64,000 nt of DNA from a virus: UHGV virus genome UHGV-1378817. One strand, 5' to 3'. The notes below the pieces were generated by a model. That model was not told where the DNA came from. It did no database searches and was given only the letters and a program-made list of their open reading frames with translations. The translations under genes were made by a program, and so were the position numbers. This document shows, one piece after another, positions 8,100 to 45,133 of this stretch (the stretch's first letter is position 1; each line of letters opens with the position of its first letter).

Positions 8100-9647
8100 T
8101 TAGATAAAACGCTTGAACATAGAAGGTGATGAGATTGATGGAATCACACAAGGAAGTGCTACCTCCTCTTTCTCCAGGAAATTAATCGCAGAAGCTACAC
8201 AGTCGGCCCAGTCGTCTTTTCTATTAAATGTTGATCTTTCCCCGTTGAATTTTTCAAGTTCAGTCAGAAATGCTTCCAGAGTATCAGGATGGAAACTGGA
8301 TTTTACAATCCTCACCATTCCTTGTTGGGCAAGATTGGCAAAAGGTGAGAACCTTGTCAGTTTAGATTTGTTGGAAGGCATTGGGTCTTCTTCAACCCTA
8401 AACCCTTCGGCGAGCAAGGATCTAGAGGAGGTTAAGAACTCACTCTTACCTGCCTGACCTGGGTCCACAGAGAAGACGATTATGCAATCATCACCATCAA
8501 ACTGCGCCTGTTTCCTGATGATCACATCTCGTTCACCAGCCTTTTTACAGAACTTGCCTTCCAGACCTGTGGAATACCTCCCGTCATCCACGTTCTCAGG
8601 ACAATAATCACCGGACAGGTAATAAAAGCCGTCGCTATCTTTACTTACCTTAACACTGGCGGTAAAGTCAGGAAACTTATTACCAGAAGTTCTCTCGGTT
8701 CCTGCCTTATCCCATGCCCTACAAGATACTGATCCAAGGGGCACTCTGTCGGCATCACGAAGGAAAGATCTTTGAAAATAGTTTGCACCCTCAGGCTTTG
8801 CAAACCAGTTACCATGGAGAAGCTGAGCTTTTTCAAGCTCGGGCAGACCTTCAAGGAAAGCAAGGTATTCTGGGTTGTCTCTTAAGCAGACAGGATTATC
8901 GAATATTGTTGCGCCTATAAACGAGAATGACAACGGTCTTGGCTTGATCTCCACACCCAGTCCGTTAACCGTGGTGTATTTCTCTATCAACTCTTCTTTA
9001 GAGTCTCCCCAGATAAATTCACCGTCGCGTCGGATAAAATATCTTTTCTTACCACATTTCTCCGGATCTGGATACCCTTCATCGTCCAACCACCATCTAA
9101 CCAGTTTGGCAAGCATGTGTTCTGAATCGGGGTTACAGCTGATAACCATTCTTGATGGATACTTTGACTGAGATCGCAGACGAGACATCAGATAGTCTAT
9201 CTGCTCCCATTCGAACTGCGTGCCCTCATCGAAGCAAACCATGGTATACTCAAGCCCTTGATGGTTAAGCTTATCTTGTACATACTCCATGTGGCAGTAT
9301 TTTACAACAGCTCCCTTTTTGCTTCTATCCCACTTGCCAGTGTTCGGATCAAACCGTGGAAAAATGAACTTATGATCCTTCTCTCTGAACTTTGGCTTAA
9401 TGTTTTCAGGCAGATCACTATAAATAGCTACTGCTTTAGGCCATAGTCCACCCTCACCTTCCAACTGTGGGGTTGTTCTTCGGAACATAACCACAGAGCT
9501 GTGGGGGTCATCAATAATTTTAAGTGGCATCAATTGCAAGAGGAACGACTTGCCAGACCCTGCGGCACCGCCGATTACCAAAATATCTGCATCGTTTTCG
9601 AGGATCATCTTCTGCTTTTCAGAACACGGTCCGTAAATCTTAGACAT
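8100..9647 (-). CDS. terL: terminase large subunit
   Basis: 515 aa; N-terminal Walker A VIGGAAGSGKS, central acidic motifs, C-terminal nuclease-like half; first gene of morphogenesis block. Confidence 0.8.
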   Translation of the reverse strand: MSKIYGPCSEKQKMILENDADILVIGGAAGSGKSFLLQLMPLKIIDDPHSSVVMFRRTTPQLEGEGGLWPKAVAIYSDLPENIKPKFREKDHKFIFPRFDPNTGKWDRSKKGAVVKYCHMEYVQDKLNHQGLEYTMVCFDEGTQFEWEQIDYLMSRLRSQSKYPSRMVISCNPDSEHMLAKLVRWWLDDEGYPDPEKCGKKRYFIRRDGEFIWGDSKEELIEKYTTVNGLGVEIKPRPLSFSFIGATIFDNPVCLRDNPEYLAFLEGLPELEKAQLLHGNWFAKPEGANYFQRSFLRDADRVPLGSVSCRAWDKAGTERTSGNKFPDFTASVKVSKDSDGFYYLSGDYCPENVDDGRYSTGLEGKFCKKAGERDVIIRKQAQFDGDDCIIVFSVDPGQAGKSEFLTSSRSLLAEGFRVEEDPMPSNKSKLTRFSPFANLAQQGMVRIVKSSFHPDTLEAFLTELEKFNGERSTFNRKDDWADCVASAINFLEKEEVALPCVIPSISSPSMFKRFI

Positions 9648-10750: not shown

Positions 10751-10827
10751 TGGTCTCCACGGAGTGATTCGAACACTCGACCTCCTGATCCCAAATCAGG
10801 CGCTCTACCAAGCTGAGCTACGCGGAG
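10751..10827 (-). tRNA. tRNA-Pro (anticodon UGG)
   Basis: Cloverleaf read by hand: 7-bp acceptor, D arm GCTC/GAGC, anticodon arm CCTGA-TTTGGGA-TCAGG, T loop TTCGAAT, encoded CCA. Confidence 0.8.
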
Positions 10828-10838
10828 TATTTATTATT

Positions 10839-10913
10839 TGGTGGCCCTGGGTGGAATTGAACCACCGTCTGGCGATTATGAGTCGCTTGCTTGAACCTTC
10901 CAGCTACAGGGCC
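10839..10913 (-). tRNA. tRNA-Met or Ile2 (anticodon CAU)
   Basis: Acceptor GGCCCTG/CAGGGCC, anticodon arm GCGA-CTCATAA-TCGC, T loop TTCAATT, encoded CCA. Confidence 0.7.
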
Positions 10914-10914
10914 A

Positions 10915-10990
10915 TGGTGCTGATAGCAGGACTCGAACCTGCAACCTATTGATTACAAATCAATTGCACTACCAATTGTGCTACATCAGC
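10915..10990 (-). tRNA. tRNA-Thr (anticodon UGU)
   Basis: Acceptor GCTGATG, D arm GCAC/GTGC, anticodon arm ATTGA-TTTGTAA-TCAAT, T loop TTCGAGT, CCA. Confidence 0.75.
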
Positions 10991-10995
10991 AAAAA

Positions 10996-11094
10996 GGTGC
11001 TAGGTGATGGAATCGAACCACCTATGTATTCAACGACTACCTCGTCTATTTTCAGGATTAAAAATCCTCGCCCTTGCCAAAGGGCTTACCTAGC
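10996..11094 (-). tRNA. atypical long tRNA-like element (~99 nt; anticodon loop reads UUU with 4-bp stem; long extra arm)
   Basis: Acceptor GCTAGGT/ACCTAGC and canonical T arm GGTGG-TTCGATT-CCATC are clear; anticodon arm and a 30-nt variable region are non-canonical; 3' end ACC not CCA. Confidence 0.35.
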
Positions 11095-11192
11095 TCAGTA
11101 TGTTGACCATGTTGCTAGTCGGCGATGACGACTGTAACATTTGATAATCCGGTTCTGCTTCCGGCTTTCGCTTAATTACAAGGTCAACAATA

Positions 11193-11283
11193 TGGCTGAG
11201 GGTAATGGAATCGAACCATCATCGAGTCATCCTCAACGGGACGGTTTTCAAGACCGCTTGAGCACCATTGCTCCCTACCCTCA
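11193..11283 (-). tRNA. tRNA-Ser (anticodon UGA), type II
   Basis: Acceptor TGAGGGT/ACCCTCA, 3-bp D stem, anticodon arm GCGGT-CTTGAAA-ACCGT, long variable arm, T loop TTCGATT, CCA. Confidence 0.75.
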
Positions 11284-11397
11284 TTTATAAACAATACTGA
11301 TAATGACACTGATTTTCGAGCAGTTAGTGACTAGTATAAACGACGATAAATATCAATGCCATTATCTGTATGATTTATGCATTTAAAACTATAAATT

Positions 11398-11484
11398 TGG
11401 TGGGGAGTGGTGGAGTCGAACCACCCGAGTCGCAATGACAATAGATTTACAGTCTACACCGCTACCTCTACGGGATAACTCCCC
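11398..11484 (-). tRNA. tRNA-Tyr (anticodon GUA), type II
   Basis: Acceptor GGGGAGT/ACTCCCC, anticodon arm GTAGA-CTGTAAA-TCTAT, variable arm, T loop TTCGACT, CCA. Confidence 0.75.
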
Positions 11485-11488
11485 AATT

Positions 11489-11563
11489 TGGCACCCCGTA
11501 CTGGACTCGAACCAGTGTCAACGGCTTAGAAGGCCGCTGCTTTATCCACTAAGCTAACAGGGC
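11489..11563 (-). tRNA. tRNA-Arg (anticodon UCU)
   Basis: Acceptor GCCCTGT/ACGGGGT (two G-U pairs), D arm GCTT/AAGC, anticodon arm GCGGC-CTTCTAA-GCCGT, T arm ACTGG-TTCGAGT-CCAGT, CCA. Confidence 0.7.
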
Positions 11564-11659
11564 ACTGGGTGGCTTTCTTTTACACCTTAGCCGCCAGAAA
11601 AGGTGGGAGACCATGTTTACAATATTACACTGTTAAGCAAAGTTTGTCAAGAAAATATT

Positions 11660-13810: not shown

Positions 13811-13947
13811 CCATAGTAAGTAATAAATTTAAAACATGGTACTTAGGATCTAGTATATTCTACATAAGTTAAGTATATGTACTTAGTACCATAAGTACTA
13901 GATCTTTTATTTTTTATTATTTAGTTATTTTAGTTATATTCTTTATG

Positions 13948-14028
13948 TGTCCGTATCACGGACAGTTAGTGTCCGTATTACGGGCAGATGTGTCCGCGTG
14001 ACGGACAGTAGTGTCCGTATCACGGACA
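13948..14028. promoter_or_regulatory. array of four 17-bp palindromic operator-like sites (TGTCCGT-N3-ACGGACA)
   Basis: Sites at 13948-13964, 13970-13986, 13991-14007, 14012-14028; 21-22 bp centre-to-centre; sites 1 and 4 identical. Confidence 0.5.
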
Positions 14029-14103
14029 GTTACTAACCTCTGTTCCATAGCGAACATAAAACATACGAATCCTTATAGTACAGATATTTAAGTTTTTACT
14101 GGT

Positions 14104-14501: not shown

Positions 14502-15056
14502 TTACTCCCCGCTGTCAATAGCAAGACTCATTGCAATACTGTATGCCTCTTCTAATGGTAAGAGTCTACCCCACACATCCCAACCGACATCAAACTGCCT
14601 GCCAAACAACTGTTGTGTGGTTCCGTGAGCATGACCGAACAGTTGTACTGATCCGTGAGGCTTTCTGTTCCACTTTGCAAACTGGTAATGGCTCATACAG
14701 ATCAAATTCTTGTTGTGGCGAAGCTCGTAATAATCTACAACCTCATGATAGAACTCTTTCATAATTCTGACAGTCGTCCTTGTGTCATGGTTGCCACGAA
14801 CAAGAATAATATGTCCGTTCAACATATTTAGAATATCTGGAAGTAAGTTGTTGATATTTTTATCAGTAGTGCACGCAATATCTCCCAAGTGGAACACAGT
14901 GTCTGCAGGTGACACAACAGAGTTCCACTCGGCGATGATTCCCGCATTCATACTGTCAAGATTGTGATCATACTGAGATCTGTGTTTTTGACATGAATCA
15001 AACTCCATGACCCGCTGGTGGAGAAAGTGTGTGTCGCTTGTTACAAAGTATTTCAT
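14502..15056 (-). CDS. calcineurin-like metallophosphoesterase (candidate 2',3'-phosphatase/phosphoesterase)
   Basis: ORF track trimmed to ATG 15056 (MKYFVTSDTHF...) with GAGGA SD; motifs SDTHF (D-x-H), LGDIA (GD), GNHD, GHAHG. Confidence 0.7.
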   Translation of the reverse strand: MKYFVTSDTHFLHQRVMEFDSCQKHRSQYDHNLDSMNAGIIAEWNSVVSPADTVFHLGDIACTTDKNINNLLPDILNMLNGHIILVRGNHDTRTTVRIMKEFYHEVVDYYELRHNKNLICMSHYQFAKWNRKPHGSVQLFGHAHGTTQQLFGRQFDVGWDVWGRLLPLEEAYSIAMSLAIDSGE

Positions 15057-15063
15057 ACATTCC

Positions 15064-15474
15064 TCATTTAAGTTTAATGCAGTTTTTAAGCTGGCGTTCC
15101 ATACGATCCACAACCCTGTCTGGAACATCATGAATGCTTTTATTACCGTGTCGGTTTTCAACCACGATTACGGTATAATTATACCCATGGCTGATTGCCA
15201 TGTCAACATATTCTTGCACATGTTTTTCTTTTGTAAACGTATTACTTACCACGATACGGTCGTATCCCATACGCATCATATCTTCTACGTTATCTTTGCA
15301 CCATTTTGCTGCAAGTGTTACTTTACTTGCATCCCAGTTGTAATTGCCGTCATCGTCGTACCAGAACATGTCGTTCTCAAAATGTGGATACAGACCTTCT
15401 AAAGATAGCGCATTTGCCAGTGTTGATTTGCCAGACCCTGGTAGACCACGCACGATATATAGCATTTTAGACAT
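15064..15474 (-). CDS. polynucleotide kinase-like P-loop kinase
   Basis: Trimmed to ATG 15474 (MSKMLYIV...) with GGAGG SD; Walker A GLPGSGKST; layout resembles T4 Pnk kinase domain (IVVSNTF..., VPDRVVDRM). Confidence 0.6.
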   Translation of the reverse strand: MSKMLYIVRGLPGSGKSTLANALSLEGLYPHFENDMFWYDDDGNYNWDASKVTLAAKWCKDNVEDMMRMGYDRIVVSNTFTKEKHVQEYVDMAISHGYNYTVIVVENRHGNKSIHDVPDRVVDRMERQLKNCIKLK

Positions 15475-15592
15475 AGTAATCCTCCGTTTTAATTTCAAAG
15501 ATAGTATACCTAACTGTTTTGTTAATTTCAAGTGTTGACACTAGGTTATTTGTGTGGCAGGATAGACTGACAAAATGACAAATGAGGAACGT

Positions 15593-16510
15593 ATGATGAA
15601 GTATTTTAATGCAGACGACCTAGTTGACAAAGGTCTTGTAACCAGTAGATATTACCCAGATCTTGGGTTAAAGATCTATAAATACGCCAGAAAAGTATTT
15701 TACAACAATTTATGGCATTTGTCCCCTCGTTTACTGGAGTGCCGAGGCATTGTTGTCGGTAATGAAGGAAATGTTGTGGCATGGCCCTTCACAAAAGTGT
15801 TTAACTTGGGAGAAAACTCCACCAACCTGCCTGACAATAAGCTTGTGACGGCGGTAGAGAAAAAGAACGGATTCCTTGGTGTGGTATCATCTCATAAAGG
15901 TGAACTATTGTTCTCAACAACCGGATCTCTTGATTCTCCATATTGTAACCTTGCAAAGGAAACCATCCAGGAGCAATGCGGTAATTTAGATCTTATCAAG
16001 AAGGTTATGGGCAATGAAAACATGACATTCATGTTTGAAATTTGTCACCCTTCAGATCCGCATATTGTTCAGGAAGATCATGGCGCATATTTGATAGGTT
16101 GCAGGTATAATGATTCTGGAATAATGCTACCAGAGGCAGCTTTAGATGGGATTGCCAAATACCTTGGTGCAAAACGTCCTCACACTGTGCGTGAAATTCC
16201 GTTCAGCTATGCAAAAGAATTGGCTGCAGAAACAAGAGGTGAAGGGTATATGATTCGTAAGCCTTACTATCCTTATGATCTGCAGCTGAAGATCAAGTCT
16301 CCATACTATCTGGCACGGAAGGCCGTAATGAGGGGTAAAGCTTGGAAGATTTGGGATGATGATATCTTTAAACGTGTTGACGAAGAGTTTTACGGCATGG
16401 TAAACTTCATTCGCAACAACTACACAGAGGATGTATGGAACTGCCTCCTGGAGCAGGAACGCCGTGAGATACTTGACTACTATTTCCACAACGAGGACTA
16501 TATGCAATGA
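15593..16510 (+). CDS. RNA ligase-like nucleotidyltransferase
   Basis: Motif I K-x-N-G (EKKNGFLG), motif IV EGYMIRK, motif V LKIKSP; start moved to ATG 15593 with GAGGA SD; divergent from kinase/phosphatase pair. Confidence 0.55.
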   Translation: MMKYFNADDLVDKGLVTSRYYPDLGLKIYKYARKVFYNNLWHLSPRLLECRGIVVGNEGNVVAWPFTKVFNLGENSTNLPDNKLVTAVEKKNGFLGVVSSHKGELLFSTTGSLDSPYCNLAKETIQEQCGNLDLIKKVMGNENMTFMFEICHPSDPHIVQEDHGAYLIGCRYNDSGIMLPEAALDGIAKYLGAKRPHTVREIPFSYAKELAAETRGEGYMIRKPYYPYDLQLKIKSPYYLARKAVMRGKAWKIWDDDIFKRVDEEFYGMVNFIRNNYTEDVWNCLLEQERREILDYYFHNEDYMQ

Positions 16511-16857
16511 AGAAGTTGATTGTGTGGCTGGATGACTTGAGAGACCCGTCAAATTATGGGCTCCCAGACGCTATTTGGCTAAAGAATTCCTCCGAGTTTA
16601 TGGATTTTATTAACGATAATAGAAAGCTCTACAGACGCGTTTCTGAGTGGCATATGGACAACGACCTTGGAGAGGTATTAGAAGGGTACGATTGTCTATC
16701 TATGTTGGAGGAAAAATTTGTATTTGGTAAGCCTCCTGTAGTTGACAACGTGAAGATTTTCGTGCATACTTCTAACCCATCAGCTGCTCGTAAATTCATG
16801 CTTGCAGCTGACTCGTTTAAAAAGTTTGGAATAGAGATTAAACAAAACATCTACTGA
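16507..16857 (+). CDS. hypothetical protein
   Basis: 116 aa; ATGA start/stop overlap with RNA ligase gene; N-terminus MKKLIVWLDDLRDP. Confidence 0.45.
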   Translation: MKKLIVWLDDLRDPSNYGLPDAIWLKNSSEFMDFINDNRKLYRRVSEWHMDNDLGEVLEGYDCLSMLEEKFVFGKPPVVDNVKIFVHTSNPSAARKFMLAADSFKKFGIEIKQNIY

Positions 16858-16865
16858 GGACACTT

Positions 16866-17627
16866 ATGCGACGACTTATTATTATCTCCGGTGCTGGTTT
16901 GAGCGCTGAATCTGGTATTCCCACTTTCCGATCTGGTAGCACTGCAATGTGGGAGAATTTCAGCATCGATGAGGTGTGCAACATCCACACCTTTGCCAAG
17001 AACTACTATAAGGTGCATGACTTTTACAATGCACGTCGTGTAGCTCTAGGCAGTGTTGAGCCTAACCTTGCACATCTTCGGATCGCTGAGTGGTATTCCC
17101 GCTGGTCTGGTCGTGTGATCAACCTTACCACCAATGTAGATGATTTGCTGGAGCGTGCTGGTGTAAAACATGAAGATATTTTACATGTCCACGGGTATTT
17201 GCCAGAAATAGTCTATGAGGACGATGAAGGAAGTGACGTCATTAAGGACATTGGATACTCTGAGGTAGACGCAGGAAAGTATACCTGGGTTAAGCCTAAT
17301 GTGGTGTTCTTCGGAGAAGTAGCTCCGAAGTATACAGACATGTATGACCTGTTGACTTCTCTTACGAGCAATGATATGGTTATCCTTGTAGGGTGCTCCA
17401 ACACAGTTATCAATTTTAACTGGGAGCTATTCCCTGCCTGCAATAAGGGAACAAAACTGCTGATCGTTAACAAATACGACTCACAGCAGCTAGGGGAGAA
17501 TGGCATTTCACGTAGTGATATTTACCAATATGAGGATCGCGGCATCCCAGTTTGGTTTAACGGGGCGGTTGATGCTTTCTCTGATAAAACATTCATTGAG
17601 ACCGTAGAAAACTTTATGGAACTTTAA
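16866..17627 (+). CDS. Sir2-family NAD-dependent deacylase/ADP-ribosyltransferase
   Basis: Sirtuin motifs GAGLSAESGIPTFR, TTNVDDLLERAG, catalytic HG (LHVHGY), VILVGCSNTV; no CxxC zinc module seen. Confidence 0.75.
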   Translation: MRRLIIISGAGLSAESGIPTFRSGSTAMWENFSIDEVCNIHTFAKNYYKVHDFYNARRVALGSVEPNLAHLRIAEWYSRWSGRVINLTTNVDDLLERAGVKHEDILHVHGYLPEIVYEDDEGSDVIKDIGYSEVDAGKYTWVKPNVVFFGEVAPKYTDMYDLLTSLTSNDMVILVGCSNTVINFNWELFPACNKGTKLLIVNKYDSQQLGENGISRSDIYQYEDRGIPVWFNGAVDAFSDKTFIETVENFMEL

Positions 17628-17640
17628 AAGGAGACCTTTA

Positions 17641-18354
17641 ATGCTGAATACCAAATTAATTGACAACCTGGAAAAACTGTCCCAACCTGAAAACTACCTT
17701 TGGTCTGCCAACTGGGTGGAAAACTGGAACCGTGTGGCAGCTAAAGTGAAAAAATCATACACACCATTCGAATTACAGCTTAGCTTCATTGAGGAAGAGT
17801 TCAATGAAGTTTTGGAAGAGCTGGAGAAAGGTGATGGCGGAGATCACCTGCTAAAAGAGGCCTGCGATCTTCACGTTGTCACAAGTTATGCCGCTTATCT
17901 TGTTAATGATAATCACGAAAAGTGGTCAAACCTGTTTGATAATCCACAGGGTCTTAAGTTCAAGATCGGTGAGTTCTATGATACACTGATCGCTGCGAAA
18001 AACACCTCTAAGCAAAAAGCGTCCGCTTACCGCTTAGCAGAGTTGTCAACAGCTTTGCTGTTCCAGCTTCGCGGCGATGTGTGCGGGATGATGCGTAAGG
18101 TTCTCAAATCGAATGACAGCAAGTTTGCACGGGTCAACCATCTACGGTATTCACACGGTGCCAGTGCAGATATGCCTGCTGAACAACTCATCGAGTTGGA
18201 GATTAAAGATCTTGAGCGACGCTTTGATGGTCGATATGAAGGTTTTGTTGCTAAGGAAGAATTCTACAACGGTAATAAAGTTATCATATTCCTTGACAGC
18301 AAAGGTAAGATCATGAAGCCTTCGAGCTTCAAGGATGTAACAGAGTATATTTAA
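17641..18354 (+). CDS. MazG-like nucleotide pyrophosphohydrolase domain protein
   Basis: N-terminal EEEFNEVLEELEKGD...EACDL acidic motifs resembling MazG/HisE fold; 237 aa with an extra C-terminal domain. Confidence 0.4.
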   Translation: MLNTKLIDNLEKLSQPENYLWSANWVENWNRVAAKVKKSYTPFELQLSFIEEEFNEVLEELEKGDGGDHLLKEACDLHVVTSYAAYLVNDNHEKWSNLFDNPQGLKFKIGEFYDTLIAAKNTSKQKASAYRLAELSTALLFQLRGDVCGMMRKVLKSNDSKFARVNHLRYSHGASADMPAEQLIELEIKDLERRFDGRYEGFVAKEEFYNGNKVIIFLDSKGKIMKPSSFKDVTEYI

Positions 18355-44849: not shown

Positions 44850-45133
44850 TCTGGATATCCTATGCTGATGGCACCATGCTGTATACTGCAGGTACCAGAT
44901 ATGAAGTTCAGGAGAACGATAAAAAATTTATCGTAAAAACATTTGACAAGGACGACAACCTTTTGCTAGAATTGACTTACAAGGTTGGAGAGGTATCCAA
45001 TATCCAATTGGATTGTGGTCATAAAGATAATCCACTCAAAAAACCTGGAATAGGCAAGGCTTCAGAAGAACGTTTGTCTCGTATTGCAGAAAGCGTTTCT
45101 ACACAAAAATCTAAGAAGGGGACTAGAAAATGA
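44846..45133 (+). CDS. hypothetical protein
   Basis: 95 aa; ATGA overlap. Confidence 0.4.
   Translation: MIWISYADGTMLYTAGTRYEVQENDKKFIVKTFDKDDNLLLELTYKVGEVSNIQLDCGHKDNPLKKPGIGKASEERLSRIAESVSTQKSKKGTRK

What the first reader, a model, noticed from the sequence alone, without database searches (positions are those of the whole stretch)
10751..11563. Compact tRNA cluster with decoding identities typical of anticodon-nuclease targets
Seven tRNA-like genes lie within 813 bp with 1-110 nt spacers, all on the minus strand. Tyr, Arg, Ser, Thr, Pro and Met/Ile are among the isoacceptors phages commonly supply. Their position right beside the RNA repair genes suggests both are part of one strategy to keep translation running during infection.
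Basis: partly seen in the sequence, partly recalled or inferred. Interest (0 to 1): 0.4.

Follow-up and report, generated by a model that had tools for sequence, protein, structure and literature searches.

The report
Phage tRNA cluster plus tRNA mimic
This is the already described transfer-RNA gene cluster of an rV5-like E. coli phage: six ordinary tRNAs that read the codons the phage over-uses, plus a seventh, non-standard tRNA-shaped RNA with a lysine-like anticodon loop that is conserved across a phage subfamily but has no known role.

Summary
ARAGORN finds seven tRNA-type genes at exactly 10751-11563, all on the minus strand, and none elsewhere in the window. The window is a Vequintavirus (99.8% identical to Escherichia phage ime). 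The rV5 genome paper already describes this cluster as six tRNAs.

Six genes are canonical: Arg(UCU), Tyr(GUA), Ser(UGA), Thr(UGU), Pro(UGG), and a CAU tRNA that is Ile2 (AUA) rather than Met. Nine of the ten codons most enriched in phage over host ORFs can be read by this set (P about 6e-6). Five of the six are shared with T4. Codon supply is therefore the best-supported function.

The anticodon-nuclease reading is partly supported. Tyr, Thr(UGU) and Lys(UUU) are published targets of E. coli defence tRNases. The RNA-repair genes lie 2.9-4.0 kb away, not adjacent.

The seventh gene (10996-11094) is the unexpected part. It belongs to a tRNA-shaped RNA family found once per genome across Vequintavirinae and in one N4-like phage. 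All stems covary, as does the tertiary 19:56 pair. The variable region is long and conserved. The anticodon loop differs by lineage and is non-canonical in most genera. Here it mimics tRNA-Lys(UUU). I found no description of this family.

The parts
11622..11650 (-). Sigma-70-type promoter match (TTGACA, 17 nt, TAATAT) about 58 nt upstream of the first tRNA
   Evidence: Consensus scan, 10 of 12 matches. The leader/promoter segment has only 3% variable columns among 8 Vequintavirus genomes, against 21-22% in the long spacers. Function as a promoter is inferred, not shown.
11489..11563 (-). tRNA-Arg(UCU), reads AGA/AGG; CCA encoded
   Evidence: ARAGORN. RF00005 67.8 bits. 74% identical to E. coli argU, with the same anticodon loop CUUCUAA. 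AGA and AGG rank first and second among phage-enriched codons.
11398..11484 (-). tRNA-Tyr(GUA), class II (long variable arm); CCA encoded
   Evidence: ARAGORN. RF00005 29.9 bits. 71% identical to tyrU, with the same anticodon loop but a different variable arm. A diverged allele in phage SYGMH1 keeps all pairs.
11284..11397 (-). 114-nt A+T-rich spacer that folds into one long hairpin
   Evidence: MFE -26.4 kcal/mol, z = -4.2, 0 of 200 shuffles as stable. Found only in Vequintavirus. 21% variable columns. Role unknown; a processing site is a guess.
11193..11283 (-). tRNA-Ser(UGA), class II with an atypical D arm (4-bp stem, 6-nt loop, A at position 8); G73 and CCA encoded
   Evidence: ARAGORN. 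Missed by RF00005 at gathering threshold. tRNA-Sec model 40.2 bits, below its threshold of 47. Anticodon loop identical to serT. Close homologue of the tRNA-Ser(UGA) of P1-like phage D6.
11095..11192 (-). 98-nt spacer holding a roughly 70-nt conserved element that is also present in lambda and in P1-like phages
   Evidence: 83% identical to lambda 44866-44952 (between orf-64 and S) and 88% to P7/D6. In D6 it also lies directly 3' of tRNA-Ser(UGA). The hairpin GUCG/CGAC here corresponds to GGCG/CGCC there, a compensatory change. Fold z = -2.8. Never annotated.
10996..11094 (-). Non-canonical tRNA-shaped RNA. It has a 7-bp acceptor, a 6-bp D stem with a 4-nt loop, and a 4-bp anticodon stem plus a G.G mismatch. 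The loop is UUUUUAA (Lys-like UUU). The variable region is 31 nt and contains a 5-bp hairpin. The T arm is canonical, the discriminator is A73, and CC (not CCA) is encoded.
   Evidence: ARAGORN '???(atcc)'. RF00005 35.5 bits. Covariance model R1: 101 bits here, 95-133 bits for family members, no more than 35.5 bits for ordinary tRNAs. 99% of cells paired, and 11 of 24 pairs show compensatory changes, including the tertiary 19:56 pair. 5% variable columns within the genus, all preserving pairing.
10915..10990 (-). tRNA-Thr(UGU), reads ACA (and ACU/ACG by wobble); CCA encoded
   Evidence: ARAGORN. RF00005 76.2 bits. 76% identical to thrU. The loop is UUUGUAA (U32 where the host has C32). Positions 36-41, UAAUCA, are identical to the host. 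ACA ranks third among phage-enriched codons.
10839..10913 (-). CAU-anticodon tRNA, assigned here to tRNA-Ile2 (lysidine-dependent, reads AUA) rather than Met; CCA encoded
   Evidence: 76% identical to E. coli ileX against 66% to metT/metU. Positions 28-42, GCGACUCAUAAUCGC, are identical to ileX. It has C4:G69 and C5:G68. It lacks the initiator C1xA72 mismatch and the three G:C pairs in the anticodon stem. ATA ranks seventh among phage-enriched codons, while ATG is not enriched.
10751..10827 (-). tRNA-Pro(UGG); CCA encoded
   Evidence: ARAGORN. RF00005 66.4 bits. 82% identical to T4 tRNA-Pro and 78% to proM, with the same loop UUUGGGA. CCT ranks fifth among phage-enriched codons.

Best explanation
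This is the tRNA operon of an rV5-like (Vequintavirus) coliphage.

How it most likely works: it is transcribed leftward from a near-consensus sigma-70 promoter as one precursor (inferred). Host RNase P and 3' trimming enzymes cut that precursor into individual RNAs (inferred from established tRNA biology).

The six canonical tRNAs are Arg UCU, Tyr GUA, Ser UGA, Thr UGU, Ile2 CAU and Pro UGG. They enlarge the pool of decoders for codons that this 43% G+C phage uses far more than its 51-53% G+C host: AGA/AGG, ACA/ACU, AUA, UCA/UCU and CCU. The set is essentially the one T4 carries.

A secondary role is likely but unproven. By dosage, the Tyr and Thr(UGU) genes would also buffer the phage against host defence tRNases that deplete exactly those species.

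The seventh gene is not a decayed tRNA. It belongs to a conserved, L-shaped tRNA-like RNA family. The body of the RNA is under strong structural selection. The anticodon loop is free to change between lineages. In this lineage the loop (UUUUUAA-UCC) and the discriminator (A73) have become tRNA-Lys(UUU)-like. It therefore acts either as an unusual Lys acceptor/decoder or as a non-decoding mimic of tRNA-Lys.
For: Identity and prior knowledge:
- 99.8% identical to Escherichia phage ime. The cluster is annotated in more than 100 records.
- The rV5 paper reports six tRNAs and higher phage use of AGA (26% against 5.1%), ACA (35% against 14.6%) and CCA (29% against 19.1%) (PMC3606486).

Codon match, my own count:
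- 63 window ORFs (12.9k codons) were compared with 24 ORFs of an E. coli K-12 locus.
- Enrichment ranks are AGA 1, AGG 2, ACA 3, TCT 4, CCT 5, ATA 7, AAG 8, ACT 9, TCA 10.
- Nine of the top ten are readable by the set, hypergeometric P = 5.8e-6. Without the odd gene it is eight of ten, P = 3.7e-5.

Overlap with T4: Arg UCU, Ile CAU, Thr UGU, Ser UGA and Pro UGG are shared.

Ile2 assignment: ileX-identical anticodon arm, C4:G69 and C5:G68.

Promoter match.

Seventh gene:
- One copy per genome in Vequintavirus, Avunavirus, Seunavirus, Henunavirus, Mydovirus and one Schitoviridae phage.
- Family members score 95-133 bits against no more than 35.5 bits for ordinary tRNAs.
- 99% of cells are paired, against 34-47% in slid controls. 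Eleven of 24 pairs are compensatory, including G19:C56 changing to U19:A56.
- Within the genus it is as conserved as the real tRNAs: 5% variable columns against 21-22% in the long spacers.
- U34, U35, U36 and A73 are the known LysRS identity elements (established knowledge). A73 occurs only in this lineage; the other lineages have U73.
Against: - The host codon sample is one 40-kb locus and the phage sample is half a genome.
- The wobble assignments assume that host enzymes modify the phage tRNAs.
- Tyr codons are not enriched as synonymous fractions (ranks 21 and 27). CCA itself ranks 31. Codon supply therefore does not explain Tyr well.
- No expression, processing or charging data exist for any of these genes.
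- For the seventh gene, decoding competence is doubtful. The anticodon stem has 4 bp plus a G.G mismatch, or alternatively 5 bp with a 5-nt loop. Positions 8 and 14 are A and U instead of U and A. The variable region is 31 nt. In most genera the loop has 6 or 8 nt and lacks U33.
Confidence: 0.8

Rival explanations
1. The cluster is primarily an anti-defence device. The phage supplies Tyr, Thr(UGU) and a Lys(UUU)-like RNA because host abortive-infection tRNases (PARIS AriB, PrrC/RloC, Retron-Eco7/Septu PtuAB, Schlafen) destroy those species. It works together with the nearby Pnkp/Rnl1-type repair cassette.
For: - Published targets: AriB cuts Lys(UUU) and Thr(UGU) (major) and Asn (minor) between positions 40 and 41. 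T5 tRNAs rescue infection (PMC12409363).
- The Lys-like RNA carries C41, the same change as T5 'Mut2' (A41 to C), which 'substantially inhibits' AriB.
- Thr and the Lys-like RNA are the only two with a loop change relative to the host (U32 for C32).
- A strong promoter match is present.
- The repair cassette lies in the same arm in this phage and in KB57.
- Tyr is not explained by codon bias.
Against: - Four of the seven identities (Arg UCU, Ile2, Ser UGA, Pro UGG) are, as far as I know, not reported defence-tRNase targets. They are the top codon-bias matches.
- Thr keeps the exact AriB site UAAUC|A.
- The Tyr anticodon loop equals the host's.
- The repair genes are 2.9-4.0 kb away, in other transcription units.
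- No phenotypic data on Vequintavirinae turned up in the defence papers I searched.
Confidence: 0.3
2. The seventh gene is a non-decoding tRNA mimic. Candidate roles are a decoy or competitive inhibitor for tRNA-binding defence nucleases, or a ligand for some other tRNA-binding protein. The L-shaped body gives binding. The lineage-specific anticodon loop sets which tRNA it imitates.
For: - The loop is the fastest-evolving paired-region neighbour in the family. Variants seen are CAUCCA, CCUCCA, CCACCA, CAGCCA, CUUCCA, CAUCAAA, UAUCAAA, UUUAUAA and UUUUUAA. The body, by contrast, covaries and is conserved. That pattern is the opposite of a decoding tRNA.
- Most loops have 6 or 8 nt, or lack U33.
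- The elbow pair 19:56 covaries.
- The same arrays in relatives hold other conserved tRNA-likes with short loops.
- The authors of the AriB study raise the possibility that viral tRNAs inhibit AriB by competition.
Against: - No direct evidence for any binding partner.
- In this lineage the loop is a canonical 7-mer with U33 and A37, plus A73. That looks like selection for charging and decoding rather than mere mimicry.
- I know of no demonstrated precedent for a dedicated phage decoy tRNA.
Confidence: 0.4
3. The seventh gene is a bona fide, if odd-bodied, tRNA-Lys(UUU) that decodes AAA/AAG. Vequintavirus has lost the canonical Lys tRNAs that its relatives carry.
For: - It has a 7-nt loop UUUUUAA with U33, UUU and A37, and A73 only in this lineage.
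- RF00005 scores it at 35.5 bits, above the threshold of 29.
- tRNAscan-based annotations in the BASEL phages call it tRNA-Lys.
- AAG is the eighth most phage-enriched codon.
- Relatives encode ordinary Lys(CUU) and Lys(UUU) tRNAs, and this genus does not.
- The 7/5 acceptor/T geometry fits EF-Tu.
Against: - Other annotators call the identical sequence OTHER, Pseudo, Stop(tta) or ???(atcc), or leave it unannotated.
- The anticodon stem has 4 bp plus a G.G mismatch, and there is no clear nucleotide 26.
- Positions 8 and 14 are A and U.
- A 31-nt variable region is unknown for Lys tRNAs.
- The sister lineage Av-05 differs by one loop base (UAU), has U73 and has no CCA.
Confidence: 0.3
4. The seventh gene is a decaying pseudogene, and the two long spacers are debris of lost tRNAs.
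For: - Vequintavirus has 7 genes where relatives have 20 or more, so gene loss has occurred.
- Some annotation pipelines flag the gene as pseudo.
Against: - Compensatory changes occur in every stem and in a tertiary pair across at least six genera.
- There is one copy in every genome.
- Within-genus conservation equals that of the real tRNAs.
- The spacers give no tRNA signal even at E = 10.
Confidence: 0.04

Closest known systems
The tRNA cluster of Escherichia phage rV5 and other Vequintavirus genomes (Kropinski et al. 2013, PMC3606486)
   Same: It is the same locus. The cluster is 99-100% identical in more than 100 records. The six tRNAs reported there are the six canonical ones here. The codon-usage rationale is already published.
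   Different: The paper lists the CAU tRNA as Met; here it is assigned to Ile2. It does not mention the seventh gene. GenBank records label that gene inconsistently: Lys, OTHER, Pseudo, Stop(tta), ???(atcc) or nothing.
Phage T4 tRNA gene cluster (eight tRNAs plus the stable RNAs rnaC and rnaD)
   Same: A compact polycistronic array in a virulent coliphage. Five anticodons are shared: Arg UCU, Ile CAU, Thr UGU, Ser UGA and Pro UGG. Pro is 82% identical. Both arrays contain extra stable or tRNA-like RNA genes of unknown function.
   Different: T4 also has Gly, Leu and Gln, and lacks Tyr and any Lys-like gene. T4 rnaC and rnaD are not homologous to the seventh gene (6 bits or less with model R1). 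Here all six canonical genes encode CCA, whereas T4 Ile, Pro and Ser do not.
T5 anti-defence tRNAs: tRNA-Lys(UUU)/Thr(UGU)/Asn(GUU) against PARIS, and tRNA-Tyr against Retron-Eco7
   Same: The same anticodons (Tyr, Thr UGU, Lys-like UUU) sit in a phage array behind a strong promoter match. The Lys-like RNA has C41, as T5 tRNA-Lys does ('Mut2').
   Different: There is no U39-to-A change here. Thr is unchanged at the AriB site. The Lys-like RNA has a non-canonical body. No rescue experiment exists for this phage group.
Class II tRNAs and tRNA-Sec/allo-tRNAs (long variable arm; Sec has a 6-bp D stem with a 4-nt loop)
   Same: The seventh gene has a long extra arm. Its D arm folds as 6 bp with a 4-nt loop.
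   Different: The acceptor/T geometry is 7/5, not 8/5, 9/4 or 8/4. The discriminator is U or A, not G. The variable region has long conserved single-stranded flanks (GAAAAUAG and AAUACAUA) that no class II tRNA has. Only two lineages have a UCA-centred loop, and that loop has A33.
Bacterial tRNA mimics such as YrlA/Y RNA-like RNAs (PMC4201824)
   Same: A non-coding RNA that keeps the tRNA elbow (D-loop/T-loop interaction) while departing from a decoding anticodon arm.
   Different: YrlA replaces the anticodon and acceptor parts with a Ro-binding stem. This RNA keeps a full acceptor stem and, in most lineages, an encoded CCA. The weak Rfam YrlA match in the cluster (25 bits against a threshold of 69) lies over the Ile2 and Pro genes, not the seventh gene.
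T4 Pnkp + Rnl1 tRNA-Lys repair pathway against PrrC
   Same: The window encodes an Rnl1-family ligase (PF09511, phrog_562), a PNK-like P-loop kinase and a phosphoesterase.
   Different: The healing phosphatase is a calcineurin-type metallophosphoesterase on a separate protein, not T4's HAD-type domain. The cassette is 2.9-4.0 kb from the tRNAs and is not co-transcribed with them.

Membership tests
Canonical bacterial-type tRNA (Rfam RF00005), the six ordinary genes | Cloverleaf detected by two independent tRNA finders at their normal thresholds | tested here: met
   ARAGORN finds all six. RF00005 is at or above its gathering threshold for five of them. Ser is found only by ARAGORN and by the clan-mate tRNA-Sec model, below that model's threshold.
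Canonical bacterial-type tRNA (Rfam RF00005), the six ordinary genes | 7-nt anticodon loop with U33 and a purine at position 37, a 5-bp anticodon stem, and a T loop of the UUCRANY type | tested here: met
   Read from the sequences. Five loops are identical to the E. coli isoacceptor. Thr differs only at position 32.
Canonical bacterial-type tRNA, the seventh gene (10996-11094) | Standard cloverleaf dimensions: U8/A14, nucleotide 26, a 5-bp anticodon stem with a 7-nt loop, and a variable region of 4-5 nt or a class II arm | tested here: not met
   It has A8/U14. The anticodon stem is 4 bp plus a G.G mismatch with a 7-nt loop, or 5 bp with a 5-nt loop. The variable region is 31 nt with conserved flanks. 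RF00005 still scores 35.5 bits. Homologues in KE22 and Av-05 are not called by ARAGORN or by Rfam at gathering threshold.
tRNA-Ile2 (lysidine-dependent, AUA) | CAU anticodon with the TilS determinants C4:G69 and C5:G68, and an ileX-type anticodon arm (criteria recalled from Ikeuchi et al. 2005) | tested here: met
   The acceptor is GGCCCUG/CAGGGCC. Positions 28-42 are identical to ileX. Identity is 76% to ileX and 66% to metT.
tRNA-Ile2 (lysidine-dependent, AUA) | C34 actually converted to lysidine, and charging with Ile | not testable with these tools
   Needs mass spectrometry or charging assays.
Initiator tRNA-fMet | C1xA72 mismatch and three consecutive G:C pairs at 29-31:39-41 | tested here: not met
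   It has G1:C72, and the anticodon stem is AGCGA/UCGCC.
Nuclease-evading phage tRNAs (T5 type) | Same anticodon as a host tRNA that a defence tRNase cleaves | tested here: met
   Tyr GUA, Thr UGU and the Lys-like UUU match the published targets. The other four do not.
Nuclease-evading phage tRNAs (T5 type) | Substitutions at or next to the cleavage site relative to the host tRNA | tested here: inconclusive
   Thr has U36AAUCA41, identical to the host (not met). The Lys-like RNA has C41 (met) but keeps U39. The Tyr variable arm differs from tyrU, but the cleavage site cannot be mapped onto it with confidence.
Nuclease-evading phage tRNAs (T5 type) | Rescue of infection on a host carrying the defence system | not testable with these tools
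   Needs plating assays.
tRNA-Sec / allo-tRNA | 13-bp (8/5, 9/4) or 12-bp 8/4 or 9/3 acceptor-T branch, G73 and a UCA anticodon | tested here: not met
   The geometry is 7/5. The discriminator is A73 here and U73 elsewhere. The anticodon here is UUU. Only the 6/4 D arm resembles Sec.
T4 rnaC / rnaD stable RNAs | Sequence and structure homology | tested here: not met
   Model R1 run with filters off on the T4 tRNA region scores rnaC at 5.8 bits (E = 0.78) and reports nothing over rnaD beyond a 2.6-bit opposite-strand hit; the family scores 95 bits or more.
T4-type tRNA repair (Pnkp + Rnl1) as part of the same unit as the tRNAs | Ligase, 5'-kinase and 3'-phosphatase activities encoded | tested here: met
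   PF09511/phrog_562, AAA_33/phrog_505 and Metallophos/phrog_547. These are domain-level assignments only.
T4-type tRNA repair (Pnkp + Rnl1) as part of the same unit as the tRNAs | Adjacency or co-transcription with the tRNA genes | tested here: not met
   The gap is 2,939-4,012 bp and holds at least six ORFs. The ligase is on the opposite strand. The tRNAs have their own promoter match. In KB57 the gap is about 6 kb.

The most novel reading that the evidence does not exclude
The seventh gene represents an undescribed class of phage RNA: a tRNA-shaped scaffold conserved across Vequintavirinae and exchanged with an N4-like phage. It keeps the tRNA elbow, the acceptor stem and the CCA end. Its anticodon loop is re-tuned from lineage to lineage. 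It would act as a non-decoding mimic, either a decoy or an inhibitor, of whichever host tRNA is attacked by defence tRNases. In E. coli rV5-like phages it would imitate tRNA-Lys(UUU), the commonest known target (PrrC, PARIS, Schlafen). It already carries the C41 change that blunts PARIS AriB. Other aberrant tRNAs in related phages would belong to the same arms race: Asn with an extra arm, Lys with an expanded D loop, and tRNA-likes with 6-nt loops.
Probability: 0.25. Interest if true: 0.75.

Novelty: already known. Interest (0 to 1): 0.33.

Why it matters
As a tRNA cluster the finding is ordinary. The locus is annotated in over a hundred rV5-like genomes, and its codon-supply rationale was published in 2013. 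Two corrections are useful to annotators. The 'Met' gene is almost certainly Ile2 (AUA). The RNA-repair cassette is a neighbour, not a partner in the same operon.

The part that could matter is the seventh gene. The identical sequence is currently labelled Lys, OTHER, Pseudo, Stop or nothing. In fact it belongs to a structurally selected tRNA-like family with a hypervariable anticodon loop. Several E. coli defence systems are now known to kill phages by cutting tRNA-Lys, tRNA-Thr, tRNA-Asn and tRNA-Tyr. That makes this RNA a concrete, easily testable candidate for either a nuclease-resistant replacement tRNA or a tRNA decoy. rV5-like phages are widely used in phage-therapy cocktails and are part of the BASEL collection, so the experiments are straightforward.

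Tried and rejected
- Homology of the seventh gene to T4 rnaC/rnaD: rejected (6 bits or less).
- tRNA-Sec or allo-tRNA membership: rejected, because the geometry is 7/5 and the discriminator is wrong.
- ARAGORN's 'atcc' four-base anticodon rests on an AUUUU/AAAAU stem that exists only in this lineage. The 'Stop(tta)' label in SophiaRose is for the identical sequence. Both are software artefacts.
- A host or chromosomal origin for the family: none of 185,579 species genomes matches its conserved 22-mer.
- Antisense targets for its two conserved single-stranded flanks within the window: no more than chance.
- A k-turn or C/D-like motif in the flanks: dropped on inspection, because the GA dinucleotide is not conserved in Mydovirus members.
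- Hidden or decayed tRNAs in the two long spacers: nothing even at E = 10.
- A small ORF in the lambda-type spacer element: a 1-nt indel shifts the frame between lambda and the window.
- Other weak Rfam matches are the antisense or flank of real tRNAs, all far below threshold. These were Plastid-ycf2, mascRNA, YrlA, permuted tmRNA and the microRNA families.
- Literature searches for a description of the family found none within the library searched.
Full report
**1. Observation**

ARAGORN run on the whole 64-kb window returns seven genes and nothing else. In transcription order they are:
- Arg(tct) 11489-11563
- Tyr(gta) 11398-11484
- Ser(tga) 11193-11283
- an unassigned 'tRNA-???(atcc)' 10996-11094
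- Thr(tgt) 10915-10990
- Met(cat) 10839-10913
- Pro(tgg) 10751-10827

Rfam's general tRNA model passes its gathering score for six of them. Ser fails that model. It matches the related tRNA-Sec model at 40 bits, below that model's threshold of 47. The cause is a 4-bp D stem with a 6-nt loop and an A at position 8. The spacers are 4, 114, 98, 5, 1 and 11 nt.

**2. What the window is**

The 1.6 kb around the cluster is 99.8% identical to Escherichia phage ime. It is 99% or more identical to rV5, FV3 and many other Vequintavirus genomes. In 113 phage records a single match covers at least 80% of the query. In ime the same seven features are annotated, the fourth as 'tRNA-OTHER'.

The rV5 genome paper reports six tRNAs: Arg AGA, Tyr, Thr ACA, Met, Pro CCA and Ser. 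It explains them by codon usage: AGA 5.1% in the host against 26% in the phage, ACA 14.6% against 35%, CCA 19.1% against 29% (PMC3606486). The cluster as such is already known.

**3. Surroundings**

Downstream, in the direction of transcription, lie a small ORF, the i-spanin, the terminase, the portal and a head protease.

Upstream lie six small ORFs, an HTH regulator, a metallophosphoesterase (14502-15161) and a PNK-like P-loop kinase (15064-15531), all on the minus strand. Transcribed divergently on the plus strand are an Rnl1-family RNA ligase (15575-16510), a cREC_REC protein, two Sir2-like proteins and a DNA ligase.

The repair genes start 2,939, 3,501 and 4,012 bp from the cluster. A near-consensus sigma-70 match (TTGACA, 17 nt, TAATAT) sits 58 nt upstream of tRNA-Arg. 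That segment is well conserved within the genus. The tRNAs are therefore neighbours of the repair cassette, not part of its operon.

The same loose arrangement recurs in the Mydovirus KB57: terminase, then the tRNA array, then small ORFs, then the divergent phosphoesterase/RNA ligase/Sir2/DNA ligase genes. There the gap is about 6 kb.

**4. The six canonical tRNAs**

I fetched the E. coli K-12 isoacceptors and the T4 tRNA region and compared them with the phage genes.
- All six phage genes encode CCA.
- The anticodon loops of Arg, Tyr, Ser, the CAU tRNA and Pro are identical to those of argU, tyrU, serT, ileX and proM.
- Thr differs only at position 32 (U for C).

The CAU tRNA is 76% identical to ileX but 66% to metT/metU. 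Positions 28-42 are identical to ileX. It has C4:G69 and C5:G68, which from my knowledge of Ikeuchi et al. 2005 are the TilS determinants. It lacks the initiator features. It is therefore tRNA-Ile2, reading AUA, like the T4 'Ile' CAU tRNA.

Five of the six anticodons are the ones T4 carries: Arg UCU, Ile CAU, Thr UGU, Ser UGA and Pro UGG.

**5. Codon usage**

I compared 63 non-overlapping window ORFs (12,862 codons, 43% G+C) with 24 ORFs of a 40-kb K-12 locus (53% G+C). The codons most enriched in the phage are AGA, AGG, ACA, TCT, CCT, CTT, ATA, AAG, ACT and TCA, in that order.

With standard E. coli wobble rules the seven RNAs read 16 of the 61 sense codons. Those 16 include nine of the top ten (hypergeometric P = 5.8e-6). 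Without the seventh gene the figure is eight of ten (P = 3.7e-5). With strict Watson-Crick cognates only, four of seven fall in the top ten (P = 0.011).

Tyr codons are not enriched as synonymous fractions, so Tyr is the one canonical gene that codon supply explains poorly.

**6. The anticodon-nuclease reading**

Recent papers show the following:
[quoted passage not shown] T5 versions of these tRNAs rescue infection. U39-to-A abolishes cleavage and A41-to-C 'substantially inhibits' it (PMC12409363).
- Retron-Eco7 and Septu PtuAB cut tRNA-Tyr in the variable loop. Phage tRNA-Tyr expressed from a strong promoter rescues infection (PMC11555353, PMC13096335).
- PrrC and a bacterial Schlafen also hit tRNA-Lys(UUU).

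Three of the seven identities here (Tyr, Thr UGU, Lys-like UUU) therefore match known targets, and four do not. The phage Thr keeps UAAUC|A unchanged. Any benefit from it would come from dosage, not resistance.

The idea that coliphage tRNA-Lys(UUU) goes together with rnl repair has already been voiced (PMC10264068).

**7. The seventh gene: what it looks like**

Rfam aligns it with a 26-nt insertion in the variable region, one deleted position in the anticodon stem, and the loop UUUUUAA. The identical sequence is labelled in GenBank as Lys, OTHER, Pseudo, Stop(tta) or ???(atcc), or is left unannotated.

**8. The seventh gene: distribution**

BLAST with a Seunavirus copy finds homologues in 187 phage records. 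These come from Escherichia, Klebsiella, Salmonella, Cronobacter, Erwinia, Enterobacter, Raoultella and Proteus phages, and they are almost never annotated.

I fetched loci from Avunavirus, Seunavirus, Henunavirus and Mydovirus, and from one Schitoviridae (N4-like) Salmonella phage. In each the element sits inside the tRNA array, abutting real tRNAs.

A covariance model built from 14 copies scores family members at 95-133 bits and ordinary tRNAs at 35.5 bits or less. It finds exactly one copy per genome.

The family's conserved 22-mer occurs in 12 IMG/VR contigs and 18 metagenome contigs. It occurs in none of 185,579 bacterial and archaeal species genomes.

**9. The seventh gene: structure is under selection**

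On 17 distinct sequences, 99% of cells form standard pairs, against 34-47% when partners are slid. Eleven of 24 pairs show changes on both sides. No shuffle reaches the observed covariation score.

The compensatory pairs lie in the acceptor, D, anticodon and T stems. The tertiary elbow pair also switches, from G19:C56 (10 sequences) to U19:A56 (7 sequences). This may be a single evolutionary event, but it is what an L-shaped tRNA fold predicts.

Each member folds on its own into a five-arm cloverleaf with a 6-bp D stem and a 4-nt loop.

The variable region consists of a conserved GAAAAUAG, a hairpin whose sequence and length change completely between genera, and a conserved AAUACAUA.

Within Vequintavirus the gene has 5% variable columns. 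All of the changes preserve pairing. The two long spacers have 21-22%. The gene is not a pseudogene.

**10. The seventh gene: the anticodon loop**

The loop is the least conserved part. The variants are:
- CAUCCA, CCUCCA, CCACCA, CAGCCA or CUUCCA (6 nt, or 8 if the closing C-G pair opens) in Seunavirus and Mydovirus
- CAUCAAA or UAUCAAA in Henunavirus, the N4-like phage and some metagenome contigs
- UUUAUAA in Avunavirus
- UUUUUAA in Vequintavirus

Most lineages encode U73 followed by CCA. Only Vequintavirus has A73. U34, U35, U36 and A73 are the known LysRS identity elements (established knowledge).

In this phage positions 31-41 differ from E. coli lysT only at position 32 (U for C) and position 41 (C for A). 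The second is the T5 'Mut2' change.

Relatives carry ordinary Lys(CUU) and Lys(UUU) tRNAs, and this genus does not. AAG is the eighth most phage-enriched codon.

These facts fit two readings that I cannot separate. One is an odd-bodied but chargeable tRNA-Lys. The other is a non-decoding mimic of tRNA-Lys. The family-wide pattern of a constrained body and a free, mostly non-canonical loop favours a non-decoding ancestral role. The coordinated loop and discriminator change in this lineage favours charging.

**11. What it is not**

- T4 rnaC and rnaD are not homologues.
- It is not a Sec or allo-tRNA, because the geometry is 7/5.
- No Rfam family other than tRNA matches it.
- I found no paper describing it, within the limits of that library.

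**12. The spacers**

The 98-nt Ser-to-odd spacer contains a roughly 70-nt core that is 83% identical to lambda 44866-44952, between orf-64 and S. It is 88% identical to P7/D6. In D6 it follows a closely related tRNA-Ser(UGA), so Ser plus this element is a shared module. One hairpin shows a compensatory U:A to G:C change. The element is present in 426 of 5,426 complete E. coli genomes and is never annotated.

The 114-nt Tyr-to-Ser spacer folds into a long hairpin (z = -4.2) and is confined to Vequintavirus.

**13. Verdict**

The finding is a real but already known phage tRNA operon. Its composition is best explained by codon supply. Dosage-type protection against Tyr- and Thr-directed tRNases is a plausible secondary role. 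The link to the repair genes is loose.

The one thing worth following up is the seventh gene, an apparently undescribed, structurally selected tRNA-like family with a lysine-mimicking loop in this lineage.

Noticed in passing
window 11095-11192 (core about 11108-11177), minus strand; lambda NC_001416 44866-44952 (L002:1201-1287); D6 L003:1501-1566: A conserved, never-annotated element of about 70 nt with two hairpins (CCGG..CCGG, and GUCG..CGAC here against GGCG..CGCC in lambda). It is shared by Vequintavirus, lambda-type phages, P1-like P7/D6 and a Salmonella siphovirus. In D6 and here it directly follows a related tRNA-Ser(UGA). It is present in 426 of 5,426 complete E. coli genomes. Function unknown.
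   Followed up: partly
window 11284-11397, minus strand: The 114-nt A+T-rich spacer between Tyr and Ser folds into one long hairpin (-26.4 kcal/mol, z = -4.2). It is found only in Vequintavirus and is fairly variable. It may be a processing site.
   Followed up: partly
L013:5498-5586 (GAP31), L015:5890-5974 (KB57), L013:5242-5328: Related phages encode a tRNA-Asn(GUU) with a class II-like long extra arm and a tRNA-Lys(UUU) with an expanded D loop. Cellular Asn and Lys tRNAs do not have these architectures. Asn and Lys are PARIS targets.
   Followed up: partly
L015:2911-2985; L015:4587-4656, identical to L013:4318-4387: Further tRNA-like genes with shortened anticodon loops (ARAGORN '???(ga)' and '???(gt)') sit in Mydovirus and Seunavirus arrays. 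One is 100% identical between two genera. This suggests that non-decoding tRNA-likes are a recurrent feature of this subfamily.
   Followed up: no
window 14502-18354: A cassette of metallophosphoesterase, PNK-like kinase, Rnl1-type RNA ligase, a cREC_REC 'cyclic-phosphate processing receiver' protein and a Sir2-family protein followed by an ORF that ime annotates as a second Sir2-like protein (no Pfam match here), with a DNA ligase further on. The order is conserved in KB57.
   Followed up: partly
window about 13946-14030 (ime repeat_region 8554-8638): The ime record annotates an overlapping pair of repeat regions in the intergenic gap upstream of the HTH regulator. I did not examine it.
   Followed up: no
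GenBank MG0656xx records: About 18 records named 'Campylobacter phage' are 99% identical to E. coli rV5-like phages across this locus. The host label is probably wrong, or the preparations were mixed.
   Followed up: no
L039:516-603 (phage SYGMH1), against window 11398-11484: One Vequintavirus carries a tRNA-Tyr allele with 14 differences confined to that gene. All stems are kept by compensatory changes, while the flanks are nearly identical. It looks like allelic replacement of a single tRNA.
   Followed up: partly
L019:2999-3113 (Salmonella phage UTK0002, Schitoviridae): The tRNA-like family occurs in an N4-like podovirus. That copy is most similar to the Erwinia Henunavirus version, which implies horizontal transfer between unrelated phage families.
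   Followed up: partly
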